Position numbers and translations under genes: made by a program. This document shows positions 23,528 through 31,047 of a stretch of 64,000 nucleotides of DNA, piece after piece. Under the pieces are notes generated by a model. It had not been told where the DNA came from. It saw nothing but the letters and a program-made list of their open reading frames with translations, and ran no database searches. Source of the stretch: the human T2T-CHM13v2.0 reference genome, Homo sapiens; the NCBI RefSeq assembly GCF_009914755.1, contig NC_060929.1; one strand, written 5' to 3'. Every line of letters begins with the position of its first letter. Position 1 is the stretch's first letter.

Positions 23528-23664
23528 CTATTCACATAAGTTTTCATCGCTCCAATCAGCACAGTCTTGAATGCCATTTTTGCAGCGAGTTCTGGGAATG
23601 CAGGCACAGTCAGCAAAGAAAACAGTATCACATCTCCAGCCTGAACACTTTGGGCACTGTAAAA
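23528..23664 (-). CDS. LDLRAD1-like gene/pseudogene, terminal exon (LDLa repeat 3 + stop)
   Basis: gtctag|(V)LQCPKCSGWRCDTVFFADCACIPRTRCKNGIQDCADWSDENLCE*; resembles recalled LDLRAD1 C-terminus CPPCGPGWWRCPSTFFKYCDCIPRHLCRDHVQHCSDWSDEYAC. Confidence 0.85.
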
Positions 23665-23926
23665 CTAGACAATTTTATTTATTTTAAAAACCATAACTGT
23701 TAAAATGTCAAGGTGGACTGAAAAAGATATTATTGGAAAAGAAATAGCCCCCTGGATCTTAAAAATATTAGTGAAAACTGCCCAGCAGGAAAAATTGCAG
23801 ATGTTTATTAAAGATTCTACATATTTGGGTGAAAGAATTTGTACTTTGAAAAGCCAAGACAAGTACTACCCCTCACCATCAGCCTAAAAATAAACTTACT
23901 GACATATTGCATAAATAAGAAAGGGT

Positions 23927-25052
23927 GCTCACACCGCCCGCTGAGCTCTGTGATGTAGCCGCTTGCGGAGACTGCAAGCAGCCACGGCGCGCCCTCTTCC
24001 GTGGGAATGGAAACATCTGCCACACGTGCCGGAAGCCAAGTGGTGGCGACAACTGCGCGCCACTCCGCGGCCTACCGCGCAGATCCTCTACGTGTGTCCT
24101 CGCGAGACAAGCTCACCGAAATGGCCGCGTCCAGTCAAGGAAACATTGAGGGAAATTTTGAGTCACTGGACCTTACGGAATTTGCTAAGAAGCAGCCATG
24201 GTGGCGTAAGCTGTTCGGGCAGGAATCTGGACCTTCAGCAGAAAAGTATAGCATGGCAACCCAGCTGTTCATTGGAGGTGTCACTGGATGGTGCATGGGT
24301 TTCATATTCCAGAAGGTTGGAAAGTTGGCTGCAACAGCTGTGGGAGGTGGATTTTCTCTCCTTCAGCTTGCAAACCATACTGGGTATATCAAAGTTGACT
24401 GGCAACGAGTGGAGAAGGACATGAAGAAAGCCAAAGAGCAGCTGAAGATCCGTAAGAGCAATCAGATACCTACTGAGGTCAGGAGCAAAGCTGAGGAGGT
24501 GGTGTCATTTGTGAAGAAGAATGTTCTAGTGACTGGGGGATTTTTCGGAGGCTTTCTGCTTGGCATGGCATCCTAAGGAAGATGACCTCATGTTCATTGT
24601 TCCTGGTTTTTTCCAGCCAGCAGCCTCTACACTCCATCGTAGGACATCGAGTCCCTCCTCTCCTTCTCCCATGCCTTCCTGCCTGCCATGGCAAATCTGA
24701 GTGGCTTCTATAAGCTTCTGCTGGTACAAATTAATGTGGCACCATGAGCTTGATGGTGGCAGAAGAGACAATAGTCCTTAGCTCTCCTCCCAGTACACCC
24801 CCTACTTGGTCAGTCTGTAGGTCAACAAGAAGGTCAGTCTGTAGGTCAACAAGAAGGTTCCTTTACCCCCATGCAAGACACTTATGAGAACACATTGCAA
24901 GATGGCTGACCGTGGAGGATGAGTGGATCCTGAAAGGTTGTCCCAAACTGTTGATTTGGAAAAGAAATAAGCACATAGATAACCTTATTGTGTGCTGCAT
25001 GGAAAGGAACTGAATACATTTGCCTTTAAGCATGAAAAAAAAAAAAGAAAGA
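23927..25052 (+). pseudogene. FUNDC2P1: FUNDC2 processed retrocopy with intact 189-codon ORF (24007-24576)
   Basis: Intronless [11 protein letters not shown]...[11 protein letters not shown]; 5'UTR, 3'UTR, poly(A) tail from 25035; TSD AAGAAAGGGT at 23917-23926 and 25053-25062. The P1 label is from my recall of the locus. Confidence 0.9.
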
Positions 25053-25771
25053 AAGAAAGGGTCCCTTTGAGTTTGTATGTTCAATCAGCAGGGAAAAGAA
25101 TCACTGCTAATTGGCAGCTAGCAAGAAGAAAAGGATCTCCTTATACTTTTAGTCTTTATTTGTCAGAGCATTGTTATCTGTAATTCCTAGCATTTCTATT
25201 TCTACCCTCCACGATGACCAGACAAAGGGCAGGAAATTATCTATTTAGCGTATTTCTGATAGGGCTTTCAGATACTACTAACTGGGGCCACGAGGTATTG
25301 GAATTGCACCTCTGCCATGTTTTCATGAAATTGTGGGGTGATCAGGTGTCTGCCAAGTATTAAACTACCGTAAGGAACAGAATGAGGGGAGGAGAGAAGG
25401 AGGAAAGTGAGGGAGGAAAAGCAAGGAAATGGCAAAGGTTAAACAAAAAAATTTTTGAGAGCCAAAGCACTCAACAGATTTTTGTTTGATCTTCACCAAC
25501 CTTTGTAAAGAAATATAGAAGGAATCTGATAGCAGACAAGAGCTGTCCGTCAAGATTATTTCCTTTGGTAATTCTTACAGAACTGGCTGTATTCTTAGCT
25601 AGAGAATTCATCTAGTTTAAACATGCACAAACTACTGGAAATGACAGAATCTTAAAATCATGGATGTATCCTTAAGGAAGGCTTGTAAGGATGAGTTAAT
25701 TTATGTAATTGAAGTATAAGGGTAGCCACTCCAAGAAGCCATTAAAAAATTAATGACATTTTCATTTTTAC

Positions 25772-25894
25772 CTGATTTATCTGAGCAATCACCACAGTCA
25801 TTTCTTGTGTCACACACCTTGTCCATATATGTCCAAGTCTTCTGGTTGGGACACTTGAATATCAAGTTTTGTGGGAGACTGTTGGGCATTTGAC
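25772..25894 (-). CDS. LDLRAD1-like gene/pseudogene, atypical LDLa repeat 2 exon (123 nt, phase 1-1)
   Basis: atatag|(S)QMPNSLPQNLIFKCPNQKTWTYMDKVCDTRNDCGDCSDKS-G|gtaaaa; resembles recalled LDLRAD1 DVPQSLPHFLVAHCGDPASWIYSDQKCDGTNNCGDCSDE. Confidence 0.85.
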
Positions 25895-26022
25895 CTATAT
25901 TAGACAAAAGCATTAATTCTAATAGAAAGCATTCACGTACAATAATGTTTTCATATAATTCTGAATTTTAGTGATTAGTTGCTGGTGACTGTTTTTAAAT
26001 TTTGGTTACTTGTCTGCCTTAC

Positions 26023-29435: not shown

Positions 29436-29558
29436 TTTCAGGTTTTACAGGTATTCCAAAGGTGATCCCAAGACCAGTCACAGCGGTGATCACACCCAGT
29501 ACAAGGACTGCCATGTAGGAAATCAGAAGACATTGCCTGGTGGGAAGCCAGCTGTGAT
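29436..29558 (-). CDS. LDLRAD1-like gene/pseudogene, transmembrane exon (123 nt, phase 1-1)
   Basis: Pyrimidine tract ...gtgacag|(D)HSWLPTRQCLLISYMAVLVLGVITAVTGLGITFGIPVKPE-A|gtatgt; hydrophobic stretch preceded by R-x-C and followed by G-I-P, as in the recalled LDLRAD1 signal-anchor exon. Confidence 0.75.
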
Positions 29559-30059
29559 CTGTCACCGCAAAACACACAAGCACAAAAGAGAGTCTCTATC
29601 ACAGGACAGAGGCTCACAGTGGGGATACAGTGTTACCTAACCAGGTGTTGTTCAGGTTTTCTCACTGTGAAAGGCAGAAGCCAAAATTATTAGACCTTGA
29701 GTGTGTGCTTTTAGTGATAATGGTGCTTTTCCTGTCTACAGTTTCTAATTTGATCTTCTGGCAACCAGCCTTATGATGAGTGGGTATTGCTCCCCTCGTA
29801 AAAATGAAGCTTTACAATGAAGAAAGAAGGACCAGTGAGGTGAAGTGACTTCTCAGGTTTATGCTGATATAAACGGAGCCCAGTCTTCTGGTTCCTATCT
29901 GGGTAGGGCTGCTTCTACTATGCTAATGTTTCCTGGGCCCCACCCCAGACTACAGAATCAGACTCTCTAGGGGTTGCACCAGGAATCTGCACATCTTCTG
30001 AATACCTTGAGTCATCCTTAAACACACACAAATTTGAGAACACAGCCCTATACCAAAGA

Positions 30060-30600
30060 TGCCAGCCTGGGCAACACAGTGAGACCCCATCTCTACAAAA
30101 AGTTAAAAACCCAAAATAAATTAGCTGGGTGTGGTGCTGCACACCTGTAGTCCCAGCCTACTGGGGAGGTTGAAGTGGGAGGATCACTTGAGCCCAGAAG
30201 GTTGAGGCTGCAATGTGCCATGATAGAGCCACTGTACTCCAGCTTGGGCAACAGAATGAGACCCAGGCTCAAAAACAAAACCAGGCCGGGCGTGATGACT
30301 CACACCTGTAATCCCAGCATTTTGGGAGGCTGAGGCAGGCAGATCACTTTGAGATCAGGAGTTCGAGACCAGCTTGGCCAACATGGTGAAACCCCATCTC
30401 TACTAAAAGTACAAAAATTAGCTGGGCATGGTGGCATATGCCTGTAATCCCAGCTACTTGGGACGCTGAGGCAGGAGGACTGCTTGAACCTGGGAGGCAG
30501 AGGTTGTAGTGAGCTGAGATCGCGCCACCACACTCTACCTTGGGCGACAGTAAGACCCTGTCTCAAACAAAAGAAAACAAACAACAACAAAAAAAAAAGC
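30060..30600 (+). mobile_element. Two tandem Alus (5'-truncated about 30060-30280; full 30283-30600)
   Basis: Alu consensus matches and A-rich tails. Confidence 0.85.
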
Positions 30601-31022
30601 AAAGACGAAATGCGGACCATGGTTTTGGGATCCAATTAGACATGCCAAAGGACAAACATTTGCCATCTGCTTAGTGGTTTCTGGAGTAAGCAATCATTGA
30701 AGAACAGGAAGCGGAAGCTGCTTCTGTTTTATTTAGAGTGGCTTGGCACCATGAGCAAGAACTTGCCTGACCAGTTTTTTTGGCACACCACGAAGAGAAG
30801 GAGTTCTCAGACCACTTGTTATTTTATTTTATTTTATTTATTTTTTTAAATAGAGACAGGACCTCATTATGTTGCCAGGCTGCTTTTGAGCTCCTGGCCT
30901 CAAGCAATCTTCTCACCTTAGCCTCTCAGTGTTGGAATTATTGGCATGAGCCACTGCACCCAGCCTCATGATTATTTTTGTCAGTTACAGCAGCACTACC
31001 TTTTGCCAACAACGATACCCAC

Positions 31023-31047
31023 CTTTGATATTTCCAAAGTGACCCAT
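31023..31047 (-). CDS. Candidate first coding exon of the LDLRAD1-like gene (MGHFGNIK, phase 1)
   Basis: gccaATGG...AAAG|gtgggt; strong donor whose phase matches the TM exon; no homology support. Confidence 0.3.

What the first reader, a model, noticed from the sequence alone, without database searches (positions are those of the whole stretch)
23528..31047. Hidden spliced LDLRAD1-paralog gene on the minus strand, tail-to-tail with BTF3
Seen in sequence: four minus-strand exons (29558-29436, 26166-26023, 25894-25772, 23664-23528) have AG/GT boundaries, join in phase 1 throughout, and give a stop-free frame of about 175 codons: (D)[174 protein letters not shown]. Established: phase 1-1 exons and acidic D-x-S-D-E endings are hallmarks of LDL-receptor class A repeats. 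N-terminal TM plus three LDLa repeats, with the atypical P-x-SLP...W-x-Y-x-D...CGDCSDE middle repeat, is the LDLRAD1 architecture (sequence recalled). Inference: the match is divergent and intron-containing, so this is an ancient paralog, not a retrocopy. I know of no annotated human protein-coding gene here, so it is either an overlooked type II membrane protein or a unitary pseudogene. The ORF track shows only two of the four exons.
Basis: partly seen in the sequence, partly recalled or inferred. Interest (0 to 1): 0.92.

Follow-up and report, generated by a model that had tools for sequence, protein, structure and literature searches.

The report
Unannotated human LDLRAD1-like gene relic
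A complete six-exon copy of a conserved vertebrate membrane-protein gene, the ancient sister of LDLRAD1, lies unannotated beside BTF3 on human chromosome 5; its reading frame is still open, but it carries damage suggesting it is fading into a pseudogene.

Summary
The last exon matches Pfam LDLRAD1_C (E 2.9e-19) and the first LDLa exon passes the Ldl_recept_a cut-off. The human genome holds only two LDLRAD1_C loci, LDLRAD1 on chr1 and this one.

The locus is the human ortholog of a vertebrate gene predicted elsewhere as "LDLRAD1-like" (mouse-group "Predicted gene 21976"). With the ATG at 60012 and a second exon at 55625-55559, the model has six exons, GT-AG introns and an uninterrupted 208-codon frame.

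The human copy is damaged:
- An old Alu inserted 5 nt inside the LDLa1 exon and duplicated its acceptor.
- A cysteine invariant in 54 of 54 family members is serine in human.
- A conserved Glu is Lys.
- The only macaque model is frameshifted in exon 5.

Against decay, exons 5-6 differ from marmoset at 2 of 86 residues, and an intact frame is unlikely after long neutrality.

Verdict: a real, ancient paralog. In human it is most likely a young unitary pseudogene (about 55%); otherwise it is a still-coding unannotated gene.

The parts
59980..60012 (-). Exon 1: ATG plus 10 codons, phase-0 donor cag|gttacc (weak-looking). An in-frame stop lies upstream of the ATG.
   Evidence: tblastn of 6 of 7 ortholog queries hits here, as does P0024. 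Sequence read. The mini-exon parallels LDLRAD1 exon 1.
55559..55625 (-). Exon 2: 67 nt, 22 codons plus 1 base, cytoplasmic segment. Acceptor tattgtag|, donor aaag|gtgaca, ends in phase 1.
   Evidence: tblastn of 5 of 7 ortholog queries hits here, as does P0024. Sequence read. Frame continuity shown.
29436..29558 (-). Exon 3: transmembrane anchor (P0001), phase 1-1.
   Evidence: The Kyte-Doolittle 19-residue maximum is 2.37 at residues 43-61. In the bat ortholog the AF2 helix spans residues 39-67 at pLDDT 82-97.
26023..26166 (-). Exon 4: LDLa module 1 (P0002), 144 nt, phase 1-1. Only 5 of the 6 cysteines are present; the sixth is Ser in human. The last exon base is A.
   Evidence: PF00057 29.1 bits. 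Cys is present in 15 of 15 other orthologs and 54 of 54 family members.
26167..26471 (-). Alu element, sense on the minus strand, with an A-rich tail that abuts the exon-4 acceptor.
   Evidence: Sequence read. Dimer arms and target-site duplication found. Matches 23 other near-full Alus of the window, with 7.1% non-CpG divergence. The hub lists 26164-26478 as masked.
26472..26482 (-). Upstream copy of the target-site duplication TTCCAGATTTA. This is the native intron end, the acceptor AG and the first 5 exon bases. Using this acceptor puts the Alu into the exon and gives a stop at codon 126.
   Evidence: (two copies, spacing 310).
25772..25894 (-). Exon 5: atypical 4-Cys LDLa-like module (P0003), phase 1-1. 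Human has Lys where 13 of 14 orthologs have Glu in the C-S-D-E motif.
   Evidence: PF00057 14.1 bits, below cut-off; 47% identical to the LDLRAD1 exon.
23528..23664 (-). Exon 6: LDLRAD1_C cysteine-rich module plus the TAG stop (P0004).
   Evidence: PF25241 68.9 bits; 67.3 bits in the genome scan. It is 100% identical to the marmoset model.
23077..23082 (-). First AATAAA after the stop codon (445 nt downstream); a candidate polyadenylation signal.
   Evidence: Pattern only; no transcript data.
23931..25037 (+). FUNDC2P1 processed pseudogene lying inside intron 5 of this gene, on the opposite strand.
   Evidence: Hub annotation; a 205-aa plus-strand ORF is seen.

Best explanation
The locus is the human ortholog of an ancient vertebrate gene, the sister paralog of LDLRAD1. 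Other species predict it as 'LDLRAD1-like' (mouse-group 'Predicted gene 21976').

It has six exons on the minus strand, from 60012 to 23528. The ancestral product is a roughly 208-residue type II membrane protein with these parts:
- a short cytoplasmic N-terminus carrying a conserved (R/K)-V-(H/F/Y)-P-Q motif;
- one transmembrane helix;
- an extracellular stack of one canonical LDLa module, one atypical four-cysteine LDLa-like module and the eight-cysteine LDLRAD1_C module.

By inference from LDLa biology, this would be a small calcium-dependent ligand-binding or co-receptor protein.

In human the frame and all GT-AG sites survive, but the copy most likely no longer makes the ancestral protein:
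- An old Alu retrotransposed 5 nt inside the LDLa1 exon. The exon's working acceptor now sits behind an A-rich Alu tail. The native intron end and branch region now lead into the Alu, which carries an in-frame stop.
- After the human-macaque split, LDLa1 lost its family-invariant sixth cysteine, together with three neighbouring conserved residues.
- The next module lost a conserved acidic residue.

Shown here: identity, orthology, gene structure and the lesions. Inferred: loss of function, meaning a young unitary pseudogene with a fortuitously open frame.
For: Identity and orthology:
- Pfam hits.
- Only two LDLRAD1_C loci exist in the genome.
- Exon order and phases are the same as in LDLRAD1.
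- All 18 of 18 hits to exon 6 are vertebrate proteins, 16 of them with PF00057 plus PF25241.
- In a 64-row tree the human peptide sits inside the placental part of a 30-row clade (SH-aLRT 100), separate from the 34-row LDLRAD1 clade (100).

Structure:
- The joined CDS is 627 nt with a single terminal stop and five GT-AG introns.

Decay:
- An 11-nt target-site duplication brackets the Alu and includes the acceptor plus 5 exon bases.
- Using the upstream acceptor gives a stop at codon 126.
- Position 122 is Ser in human. It is Cys in 15 of 15 orthologs and invariant in 54 of 54 members of both paralog clades.
- Position 162 is Lys in human, against 13 Glu and 1 Gln in other orthologs.
- The macaque model keeps the ancestral residues at 118-123, so these four human changes are younger than that split.
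- Human and macaque differ at 7 of 47 LDLa1 residues, against 6.0 expected if neutral.
- The macaque model reads exon 5 in the shifted frame, indicating a frameshift.
- The only primate proteins found are that broken macaque model and a marmoset model holding exons 5-6 only.
- RefSeq lists no gene here (hub table).
- There is no CpG island at exon 1.
Against: - No stop, frameshift or lost splice dinucleotide exists in 208 codons. With recalled divergence values, the chance of that under neutrality is 0.32 over 10 My, 0.17 over 15 My and 0.03 since the macaque split.
- Exons 5-6 differ from marmoset at only 2 of 86 residues, against 19.4 expected if neutral in both lineages. Constraint therefore lasted through most of anthropoid history.
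- The human terminal branch (0.072) is no longer than bat (0.057), beaver (0.097) or Mus (0.082).
- Human has 15 private residues, against 4-14 in nine other mammals. Human has 3 unique changes at 68 otherwise-invariant sites, against 0-5 in seven other mammals.
- The one codon-level indel in exon 2 is in frame.
- The Alu left an intact acceptor copy, so normal splicing is possible.
- The macaque frameshift rests on one predicted protein from one assembly.
- No transcript, population or primate DNA data could be consulted.
Confidence: 0.55

Rival explanations
1. A fully functional, simply unannotated human protein-coding gene. It would make the 208-residue type II membrane protein by splicing to the acceptor downstream of the Alu, in a tissue or stage poorly sampled by RNA-seq.
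For: - Complete ATG-to-stop frame with five GT-AG introns.
- Low probability of such integrity under long neutrality.
- Exons 5-6 are 97.7% identical to marmoset (2 of 86 differ).
- The human branch length is unremarkable.
- An AATAAA lies 445 nt after the stop.
Against: - The human ectodomain has 17 cysteines, an odd number. The lost one is invariant in 54 of 54 relatives.
- Glu-to-Lys change in the conserved acidic motif.
- The Alu tail replaces the polypyrimidine and branch region of exon 4.
- Exon 1 has a weak-looking donor, gttacc.
- No primate protein model other than two broken ones was found.
- No RefSeq model (hub table).
Confidence: 0.2
2. The gene still codes, but exon 4 (LDLa1) has become a pseudoexon since the Alu insertion. 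Exon 3 splices directly to exon 5, which stays in frame. The product is a 160-residue protein with the TM anchor, the atypical LDLa-like module and LDLRAD1_C.
For: - Exon 4 is 144 nt and phase 1-1, so skipping it leaves an open 160-codon frame.
- Substitution signals differ by exon: LDLa1 is neutral-like between human and macaque (7 of 47), while exons 5-6 are strongly conserved against marmoset (2 of 86).
- Exon-skipped isoforms are predicted in other species, for example P0019 lacking exon 5 and P0009 and P0020 lacking the TM exon.
- Pseudoexons within genes that still code are described in passages of PMC6886504.
Against: - One of the two human changes in exons 5-6 hits the conserved Glu.
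- The macaque frameshift lies in exon 5, not exon 4.
- No transcript evidence is available.
- The counts are small.
Confidence: 0.2
3. A retrocopy or recent segmental duplicate of LDLRAD1, or chance open frames with a cysteine-rich look.
For: None beyond the family resemblance.
Against: - Five introns lie at LDLRAD1-equivalent positions.
- Identity to LDLRAD1 is only 46-51%.
- Exon 6 is 74-100% identical to orthologs from axolotl to marmoset.
- The tree shows separate clades, each holding cartilaginous fishes and bony vertebrates.
- Pfam E-value of 2.9e-19.
Confidence: 0.01

Closest known systems
Predicted 'LDLRAD1-like' proteins of other vertebrates (UniRef 'Predicted gene 21976' in Mus spicilegus and Nannospalax; NCBI 'low-density lipoprotein receptor class A domain-containing protein 1-like' in bats, rodents, marsupials, amphibians, coelacanth, sharks)
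   Same: Orthologous clade with SH-aLRT 100. Length is 207-208 residues with the same six coding segments and the same start motif. The human peptide is 82.6% identical to the bat protein P0007 (171 of 207). Exon 6 is 74-100% identical.
   Different: The human copy is unannotated. It carries the exon-4 Alu, Ser for the invariant Cys, Lys for the conserved Glu, and one extra codon in exon 2. These orthologs are automatic predictions. No paper on them was found.
Human LDLRAD1 (chr1; T2T chr1:53.89 Mb)
   Same: Same architecture and Pfam content. Phase-1 introns lie at equivalent positions. Both have a mini first exon encoding M..(K/R)V(F/Y)PQ. A BTF3-like exon lies 1.9 Mb from LDLRAD1, just as BTF3 lies beside this locus. 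That fits origin by a large-scale duplication; the name BTF3L4 is recalled, not tested.
   Different: Identity is only 46-51% in the three ectodomain exons. The split predates jawed vertebrates. LDLRAD1 is an annotated, expressed gene, named among ciliated-cell genes in passages of PMC12737339 and bioRxiv 10.1101/735969. Nothing is known about expression of the chr5 gene.
Human unitary pseudogenes of conserved genes found by PhyloCSF (e.g. TMEM274P, PFN5P; Mudge et al. 2019, PMC6886504)
   Same: An ancient vertebrate coding gene that is intact in mouse, unannotated in human, and carries primate-lineage damage (passages read; Data S3 part 1 read).
   Different: Those were called pseudogenes because of stops, frameshifts or lost exons. 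This locus has none of these. It is not found in Data S1-S5 under the terms LDLRAD1, BTF3, ANKRA2, Gm21976, lipoprotein, LDL or 'class A'. The chr5 rows of S3 part 1 are at 140.5 and 151.1 Mb only.

Membership tests
LDLRAD1 family (Pfam PF25241-bearing type II LDLa proteins) | C-terminal LDLRAD1_C domain above the curated cut-off | tested here: met
   68.9 bits against a cut-off of 29.2, covering profile positions 2-40 of 40. 67.3 bits in the genome scan.
LDLRAD1 family (Pfam PF25241-bearing type II LDLa proteins) | At least one LDL-receptor class A module above the curated cut-off | tested here: met
   Exon 4 scores 29.1 bits against a cut-off of 24.1. The ortholog profile aligns residues 89-207 to three consecutive LRP2 repeats, domain E 2.1e-07.
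LDLRAD1 family (Pfam PF25241-bearing type II LDLa proteins) | Full set of six cysteines in LDLa module 1 | tested here: not met
   Human has 5. Position 122 is Ser where 15 of 15 orthologs and 54 of 54 family members have Cys.
LDLRAD1 family (Pfam PF25241-bearing type II LDLa proteins) | Single N-terminal transmembrane anchor with no signal peptide | tested here: met
   Hydropathy maximum of 2.37 at residues 43-61. Confident AF2 helix at residues 39-67 in the bat ortholog. Topology (N-terminus inside) is inferred from the flanking Lys and Arg residues.
LDLRAD1 family (Pfam PF25241-bearing type II LDLa proteins) | Shared exon-intron plan with LDLRAD1 | tested here: met
   Phase-1 junctions lie at matching positions for the TM, LDLa1, LDLa2 and C-terminal exons. 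Both genes have a mini ATG exon.
Ortholog of vertebrate 'LDLRAD1-like' / Gm21976 | Groups with that clade rather than with LDLRAD1 in a tree | tested here: met
   The 30-row clade has SH-aLRT 100. Human nests among placentals (98 and 100).
Ortholog of vertebrate 'LDLRAD1-like' / Gm21976 | Conserved synteny (between BTF3 and ANKRA2) in other species | not testable with these tools
   No vertebrate genome other than the window's own is held. Orthology rests on the tree and on there being only two family loci in human.
Functional protein-coding gene | Uninterrupted frame from ATG to stop with canonical splice sites | tested here: met
   627 nt, one terminal stop, five GT-AG introns.
Functional protein-coding gene | Purifying selection on the human lineage | tested here: inconclusive
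   Exons 5-6 differ from marmoset at 2 of 86 residues (constraint). Exon 4 differs from macaque at 7 of 47 residues (neutral-like). Only protein comparisons were possible, so there is no dN/dS.
Functional protein-coding gene | Transcription and translation evidence | not testable with these tools
   No expression data are held. RefSeq lists no model (hub table). No paper was found.
Unitary pseudogene (GENCODE sense) | Premature stop, frameshift, or lost exon, ATG or splice site relative to the ancestral model | tested here: not met
   None in the human sequence. The macaque model does show a frameshift in exon 5.
Unitary pseudogene (GENCODE sense) | Other disabling lesion (splicing disruption, loss of an essential residue) | tested here: inconclusive
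   The Alu at the exon-4 acceptor with a duplicated splice site and the loss of the invariant Cys are present. Their effect was not measured.
Processed retrocopy of LDLRAD1 | Intronless copy with high identity to the parent gene | tested here: not met
   Five introns and 46-51% identity to LDLRAD1.

The most novel reading that the evidence does not exclude
Humans retain a working, never-annotated protein-coding gene between BTF3 and ANKRA2. It would be the ortholog of vertebrate LDLRAD1-like/Gm21976, older than jawed vertebrates. It would encode a small type II LDLa membrane protein, either full length (208 residues, with a remodelled first LDLa module) or as a 160-residue exon-4-skipped form created when an Alu crippled that exon's acceptor.
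Probability: 0.38. Interest if true: 0.72.

Novelty: new member of a known kind. Interest (0 to 1): 0.5.

Why it matters
Conserved multi-exon genes with a fully open frame that are missing from the human RefSeq set are now rare. This one deserves a curated record whichever way it falls.

If it is coding, it adds a new human cell-surface LDLa protein, the sister of a ciliated-cell receptor-like gene. If it is dead, it is a clean example of gene death caught before the first stop codon. In that case the first hits appear to be a retroelement at a splice site and the loss of a structural cysteine.

The family's spotty retention also makes it a natural case of recurrent gene loss. It is intact in bats, rodents, marsupials, amphibians and sharks. 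It has broken-looking models in primates, dolphin, raccoon dog and colugo. It is absent from the bird, reptile and teleost rows of the tree.

Tried and rejected
- **Structure prediction:** Two AlphaFold2 runs on the bat ortholog gave poor models. The run with 14 sequences had mean pLDDT 47.3, and the run with 54 sequences had 54.4. Only the TM helix, and partly LDLa1, were confident. I therefore ran no fold search, and the disulfide partner of the lost Cys rests on textbook LDLa connectivity (recalled), not on a model.
- **First invariant-site test:** It gave 0 human differences at 51 columns. A mis-modelled marmoset residue sat in the Cys column. I repeated the test after masking the mis-modelled N-terminal parts of 7 rows.
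- **Rate tests:** Whole-protein rate tests did not single out human. That is evidence against long decay, and I report it as such.
- **Rfam:** No RNA family was found in 23000-61000.
- **Literature:** There were 0 papers for Gm21976. There were 0 for the long NCBI name. There were 0 for LDLRAD1-like, LDLRAD1L, LDLRAD1P, 'LDLRAD1 paralog' or 'LDLRAD1 pseudogene'. Of 53 papers naming LDLRAD1, I saw only the listing of 25 and one passage in each of two of them.
- **PhyloCSF paper (PMC6886504):**
  - Name and keyword look-ups in Data S1-S5 found nothing for this locus.
  - A coordinate look-up used hg38 positions that I derived from a recalled BTF3 coordinate, so a miss there is weak.
  - Data S6 is stored cut, the PDF supplement is unreadable, and I did not read part 2 of S3.
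- **Rejected readings:** A retrocopy and chance ORFs are both rejected.
- **Alu dating:** The date is rough. The consensus was built from 23 mixed Alus of this window, and the S-type call rests on recalled diagnostic positions.

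
Full report
**1. The observation**

Reading the minus strand shows the four exons exactly as described, each internal boundary flanked by AG and GT. In a stop-to-stop ORF list of 21000-36000 (206 ORFs of at least 40 aa), the four exons sit inside ORFs of 92, 59, 88 and 48 residues.

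Pfam gives these scores:

| Exon | Family | Bits | Cut-off | E-value |
|---|---|---|---|---|
| 6 | PF25241 LDLRAD1_C | 68.9 | 29.2 | 2.9e-19 |
| 4 | PF00057 Ldl_recept_a | 29.1 | 24.1 | |
| 5 | PF00057 | 14.1 (below cut-off) | 24.1 | |
| 3 | nothing meaningful | | | |

A six-frame scan of the window's own genome finds only two PF25241 matches above cut-off. One is at chr1:53.89 Mb (82.5 bits) and the other is this locus (67.3 bits). None of 14 control genomes matches.

**2. Relation to LDLRAD1**

I fetched 20 kb around the chr1 match and ran tblastn with the four exon peptides. Exons 4, 5 and 6 align to three successive chr1 exons at 17/37, 18/38 and 22/43 identities (46-51%). The TM exon gives no significant hit.

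The chr1 exon boundaries are phase 1 at equivalent positions. LDLRAD1 also begins with a mini-exon (M-N-K-V-F-P-Q, then GT). This is therefore a diverged paralog with conserved introns, not a retrocopy.

**3. Orthologs and the two missed exons**

Searching exon 6 against longer proteins returned 18 hits from 18 candidates.
- The 17 hits that carry a source name are all vertebrate proteins, mostly called 'LDLRAD1-like' or 'Predicted gene 21976'; one hit (P0011) is unnamed.
- 16 of the 18 hits carry PF00057 plus PF25241.
- Species include bats, rodents, marsupials, dolphin, raccoon dog, colugo, marmoset and axolotl.
- No human protein was listed.

tblastn of seven orthologs against the window found those residues in two further minus-strand exons.
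- Exon 1, around 60012-59974, was hit by 6 of 7 queries (E 0.002-0.15).
- Exon 2, around 55625-55557, was hit by 5 of 7 queries (E 0.002-0.87).
- Both were hit again by P0024.

Each hit is weak alone. They are collinear, in the right order and spliceable:
- Exon 1 runs from the ATG at 60012 to 59980, then cag|gttacc. An in-frame stop lies upstream.
- Exon 2 runs from tattgtag| at 55625 to 55559, then |gtgaca, ending in phase 1 to meet exon 3.

Joined by coordinates in a script, the six exons give 627 nt, 208 codons and one terminal stop, with five GT-AG introns. The human peptide is 82.6% identical to the bat protein (171/207).

**4. Family history**

A profile of 14 orthologs found 151 proteins at E <= 1e-10 among 8000 scored candidates, of which 120 were listed. 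I picked 63 of the 128 stored proteins by hand. I chose near-full-length rows spread over taxa and dropped partial models and extra isoforms. I added the human peptide and built a quick IQ-TREE.

Two clades each have SH-aLRT 100:
- **30 rows, including human.** Placentals, a marsupial, frogs, salamanders, a caecilian, coelacanth, reedfish, sharks, ray and chimaera. A lamprey on a long branch is also in this clade, in an unresolved position.
- **34 rows, LDLRAD1 proper.** Mammals, birds, reptiles, amphibians, lungfish, sturgeon, teleosts, and shark and chimaera copies.

The split therefore predates jawed vertebrates. No bird, reptile or teleost fell in the human clade among the rows used.

A BTF3 exon peptide finds a 76%-identical exon at chr1:51.96 Mb, 1.9 Mb from LDLRAD1. 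That fits a 5q13/1p32 paralogon. The name BTF3L4 is recalled, not tested.

**5. What the protein would be**

- Hydropathy peaks at residues 43-61 (2.37).
- AF2 of the bat ortholog gives a confident helix at 39-67 (pLDDT 82-97). LDLa1 reaches only 59-81 and everything after residue 122 is below 50.
- The ortholog profile aligns residues 89-207 to three consecutive LA repeats of LRP2 (3849-3965, domain E 2.1e-07).
- Orthologs and LDLRAD1 share the same Pfam pair.

From this I infer a type II anchor with three stacked LDLa-type modules outside the cell. By analogy with LDLa modules generally (established knowledge), it would bind a ligand through calcium-organised acidic pockets. Nothing here tests function. 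For LDLRAD1 itself I saw only two passages naming it among ciliated airway cell genes.

**6. Signs of damage in the human copy**

*(a) Alu at the exon-4 acceptor.*
- An Alu lies at 26167-26471, sense on the minus strand, and its A-rich tail ends 8-9 nt before the exon-4 acceptor AG.
- The repeat finder shows an exact 11-nt target-site duplication. On the plus strand it is TAAATCTGGAA at 26162-26172 and 26472-26482, spacing 310. The Alu's two arms also appear.
- The duplication holds the acceptor and the first 5 exon bases, so the element landed inside the exon.
- The native intron end now leads into the Alu. Using that acceptor gives a 454-nt exon with a stop at codon 126.
- The downstream acceptor keeps the frame, but only a short pyrimidine run precedes it.
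- The Alu's non-CpG divergence from a consensus of 23 window Alus is 7.1% (18/253), mid-range in that set. It is tens of millions of years old. The S-type assignment is recalled.

*(b) Private human residues.* After masking mis-modelled parts of 7 rows, human has 15 residues seen in no other ortholog. They include:

| Human residue | Other orthologs |
|---|---|
| Ser122 | Cys in 15 of 15 |
| Pro118 | 14 Ser |
| His121 | 14 Tyr |
| Ser123 | 13 Gly |
| Lys162 | 13 Glu, 1 Gln |

In a 54-sequence alignment of both paralog clades, the Cys is invariant and the Glu is at least 90% conserved. The human ectodomain has 17 cysteines, an odd number.

*(c) Splice sites.* The last base of exon 4 is A, and the exon-1 donor is gttacc. 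Both look weaker than consensus. I did not score them.

**7. Primates**

A search with exon 4 found a Macaca nemestrina model of 103 residues.
- It keeps the ancestral residues at 118-123, so the four human changes postdate that split.
- After G-Q-M-P-N it continues in the shifted frame of exon 5, matching the human shifted-frame translation at 21 of 22 residues and ending at the same stop.
- That implies a frameshifting indel in macaque, on the evidence of one predicted protein.

The marmoset model holds only exons 5-6 behind a spurious first exon, and differs from human at 2 of 86 residues. No other primate protein appeared in any of the three searches.

Models that look degenerate or partial also occur in dolphin, raccoon dog, colugo, pangolins and beaver. 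These could be annotation artefacts.

**8. Weighing decay against function**

I used the real CDS and assumed values that are recalled, not measured: kappa 4, an indel rate of 0.12 per substitution, and lineage divergences of 0.010-0.050.

| Neutral period | Probability of no stop, frameshift, or splice/ATG hit |
|---|---|
| 10 My | 0.32 |
| 15 My | 0.17 |
| since the macaque split | 0.03 |
| since the marmoset split | 0.004 |

- Exons 5-6 show 2 differences from marmoset against 19.4 expected if neutral in both lineages.
- For the human lineage alone, P(<=2 differences) is 0.46, 0.09 and 0.007 for d = 0.016, 0.031 and 0.050.
- Exon 4 shows 7 of 47 differences from macaque against 6.0 expected if neutral.
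- The human branch length (0.072) is ordinary, as are the human private-residue counts.

Long neutral decay is therefore excluded. The data fit three scenarios:
- a recent loss of constraint, with exon 4 released earlier;
- continued coding with exon 4 as a pseudoexon (skipping gives an open 160-codon frame);
- continued full-length function despite the lost cysteine.

I put these at about 0.55, 0.20 and 0.20.

**9. Is it known?**

RefSeq on T2T lists nothing here except FUNDC2P1, which lies in intron 5 (hub table). Full-text searches found no paper for Gm21976 or any LDLRAD1-like name.

In the PhyloCSF/GENCODE paper (PMC6886504), I read passages and part 1 of Data S3, and searched S1-S6 by name and keyword. 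Nothing for this locus turned up. The chr5 unitary pseudogenes listed in S3 part 1 are at 140.5 and 151.1 Mb. S6 is stored cut, the PDF supplement is unreadable and S3 part 2 is unread, so an existing GENCODE record cannot be excluded.

The gene itself is already predicted automatically in many species. What is new is the complete human model and its lesions.

**10. Verdict**

This is a real feature. It is a new (unannotated human) member of a known kind. Interest is moderate (0.5). The bolder reading, a still-working human gene, has a probability of about 0.38.

Noticed in passing
window 60012-59980 and L004 around 2010 (minus strand): Both paralogs start with a mini-exon encoding M..(R/K)-V-(H/F/Y)-P-Q. 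The motif is kept from axolotl to human in this gene, and is also present in LDLRAD1. It may be a cytoplasmic sorting or docking signal.
   Followed up: partly
window 23515-23664 (minus strand, alternative frame of exon 6): A 49-residue alternative-frame ORF in the last exon matches the C-terminal tails of the horseshoe-bat isoform P0024, the pangolin P0050 and the bat P0047 models. This suggests a conserved alternative acceptor, or recurrent mis-modelling, in exon 6.
   Followed up: partly
proteins P0015, P0017, P0006, P0050, P0063, P0018: Dolphin, raccoon dog, colugo, pangolin and beaver models of this gene lack exons or have lost conserved cysteines. This hints at recurrent loss in placental lineages, although annotation or assembly artefacts are possible. 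No bird, reptile or teleost fell in this clade of the tree.
   Followed up: partly
G000 chr1:51964827-51965027 versus window 18238-18438: A BTF3-like exon (76% identical) lies 1.9 Mb from LDLRAD1 on chr1, mirroring BTF3 beside the LDLRAD1-like locus on chr5. This fits a pair of ancient duplicated blocks.
   Followed up: partly
window 26634-26816 (minus strand, intron 3): The macaque model's first exon maps to an intronic ORF here (78.8% identity over 33 aligned positions). The marmoset model's first exon maps to 34007-33939, where human has a stop. Both look like spurious first exons chosen by gene predictors.
   Followed up: no
window 23130-23500 and 34990-35090: A long TA/TG-rich microsatellite lies just 3' of the stop codon, inside the putative 3' UTR. 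An (AC)n run lies next to the RefSeq 'silencer' at 35099-35298, in intron 2.
   Followed up: no
window 26023-26040 (end of exon 4): Four human-lineage substitutions fall within about 17 nt, changing four of six consecutive codons. That is far more clustered than the rest of the gene. A mutational cluster or local event is possible.
   Followed up: no
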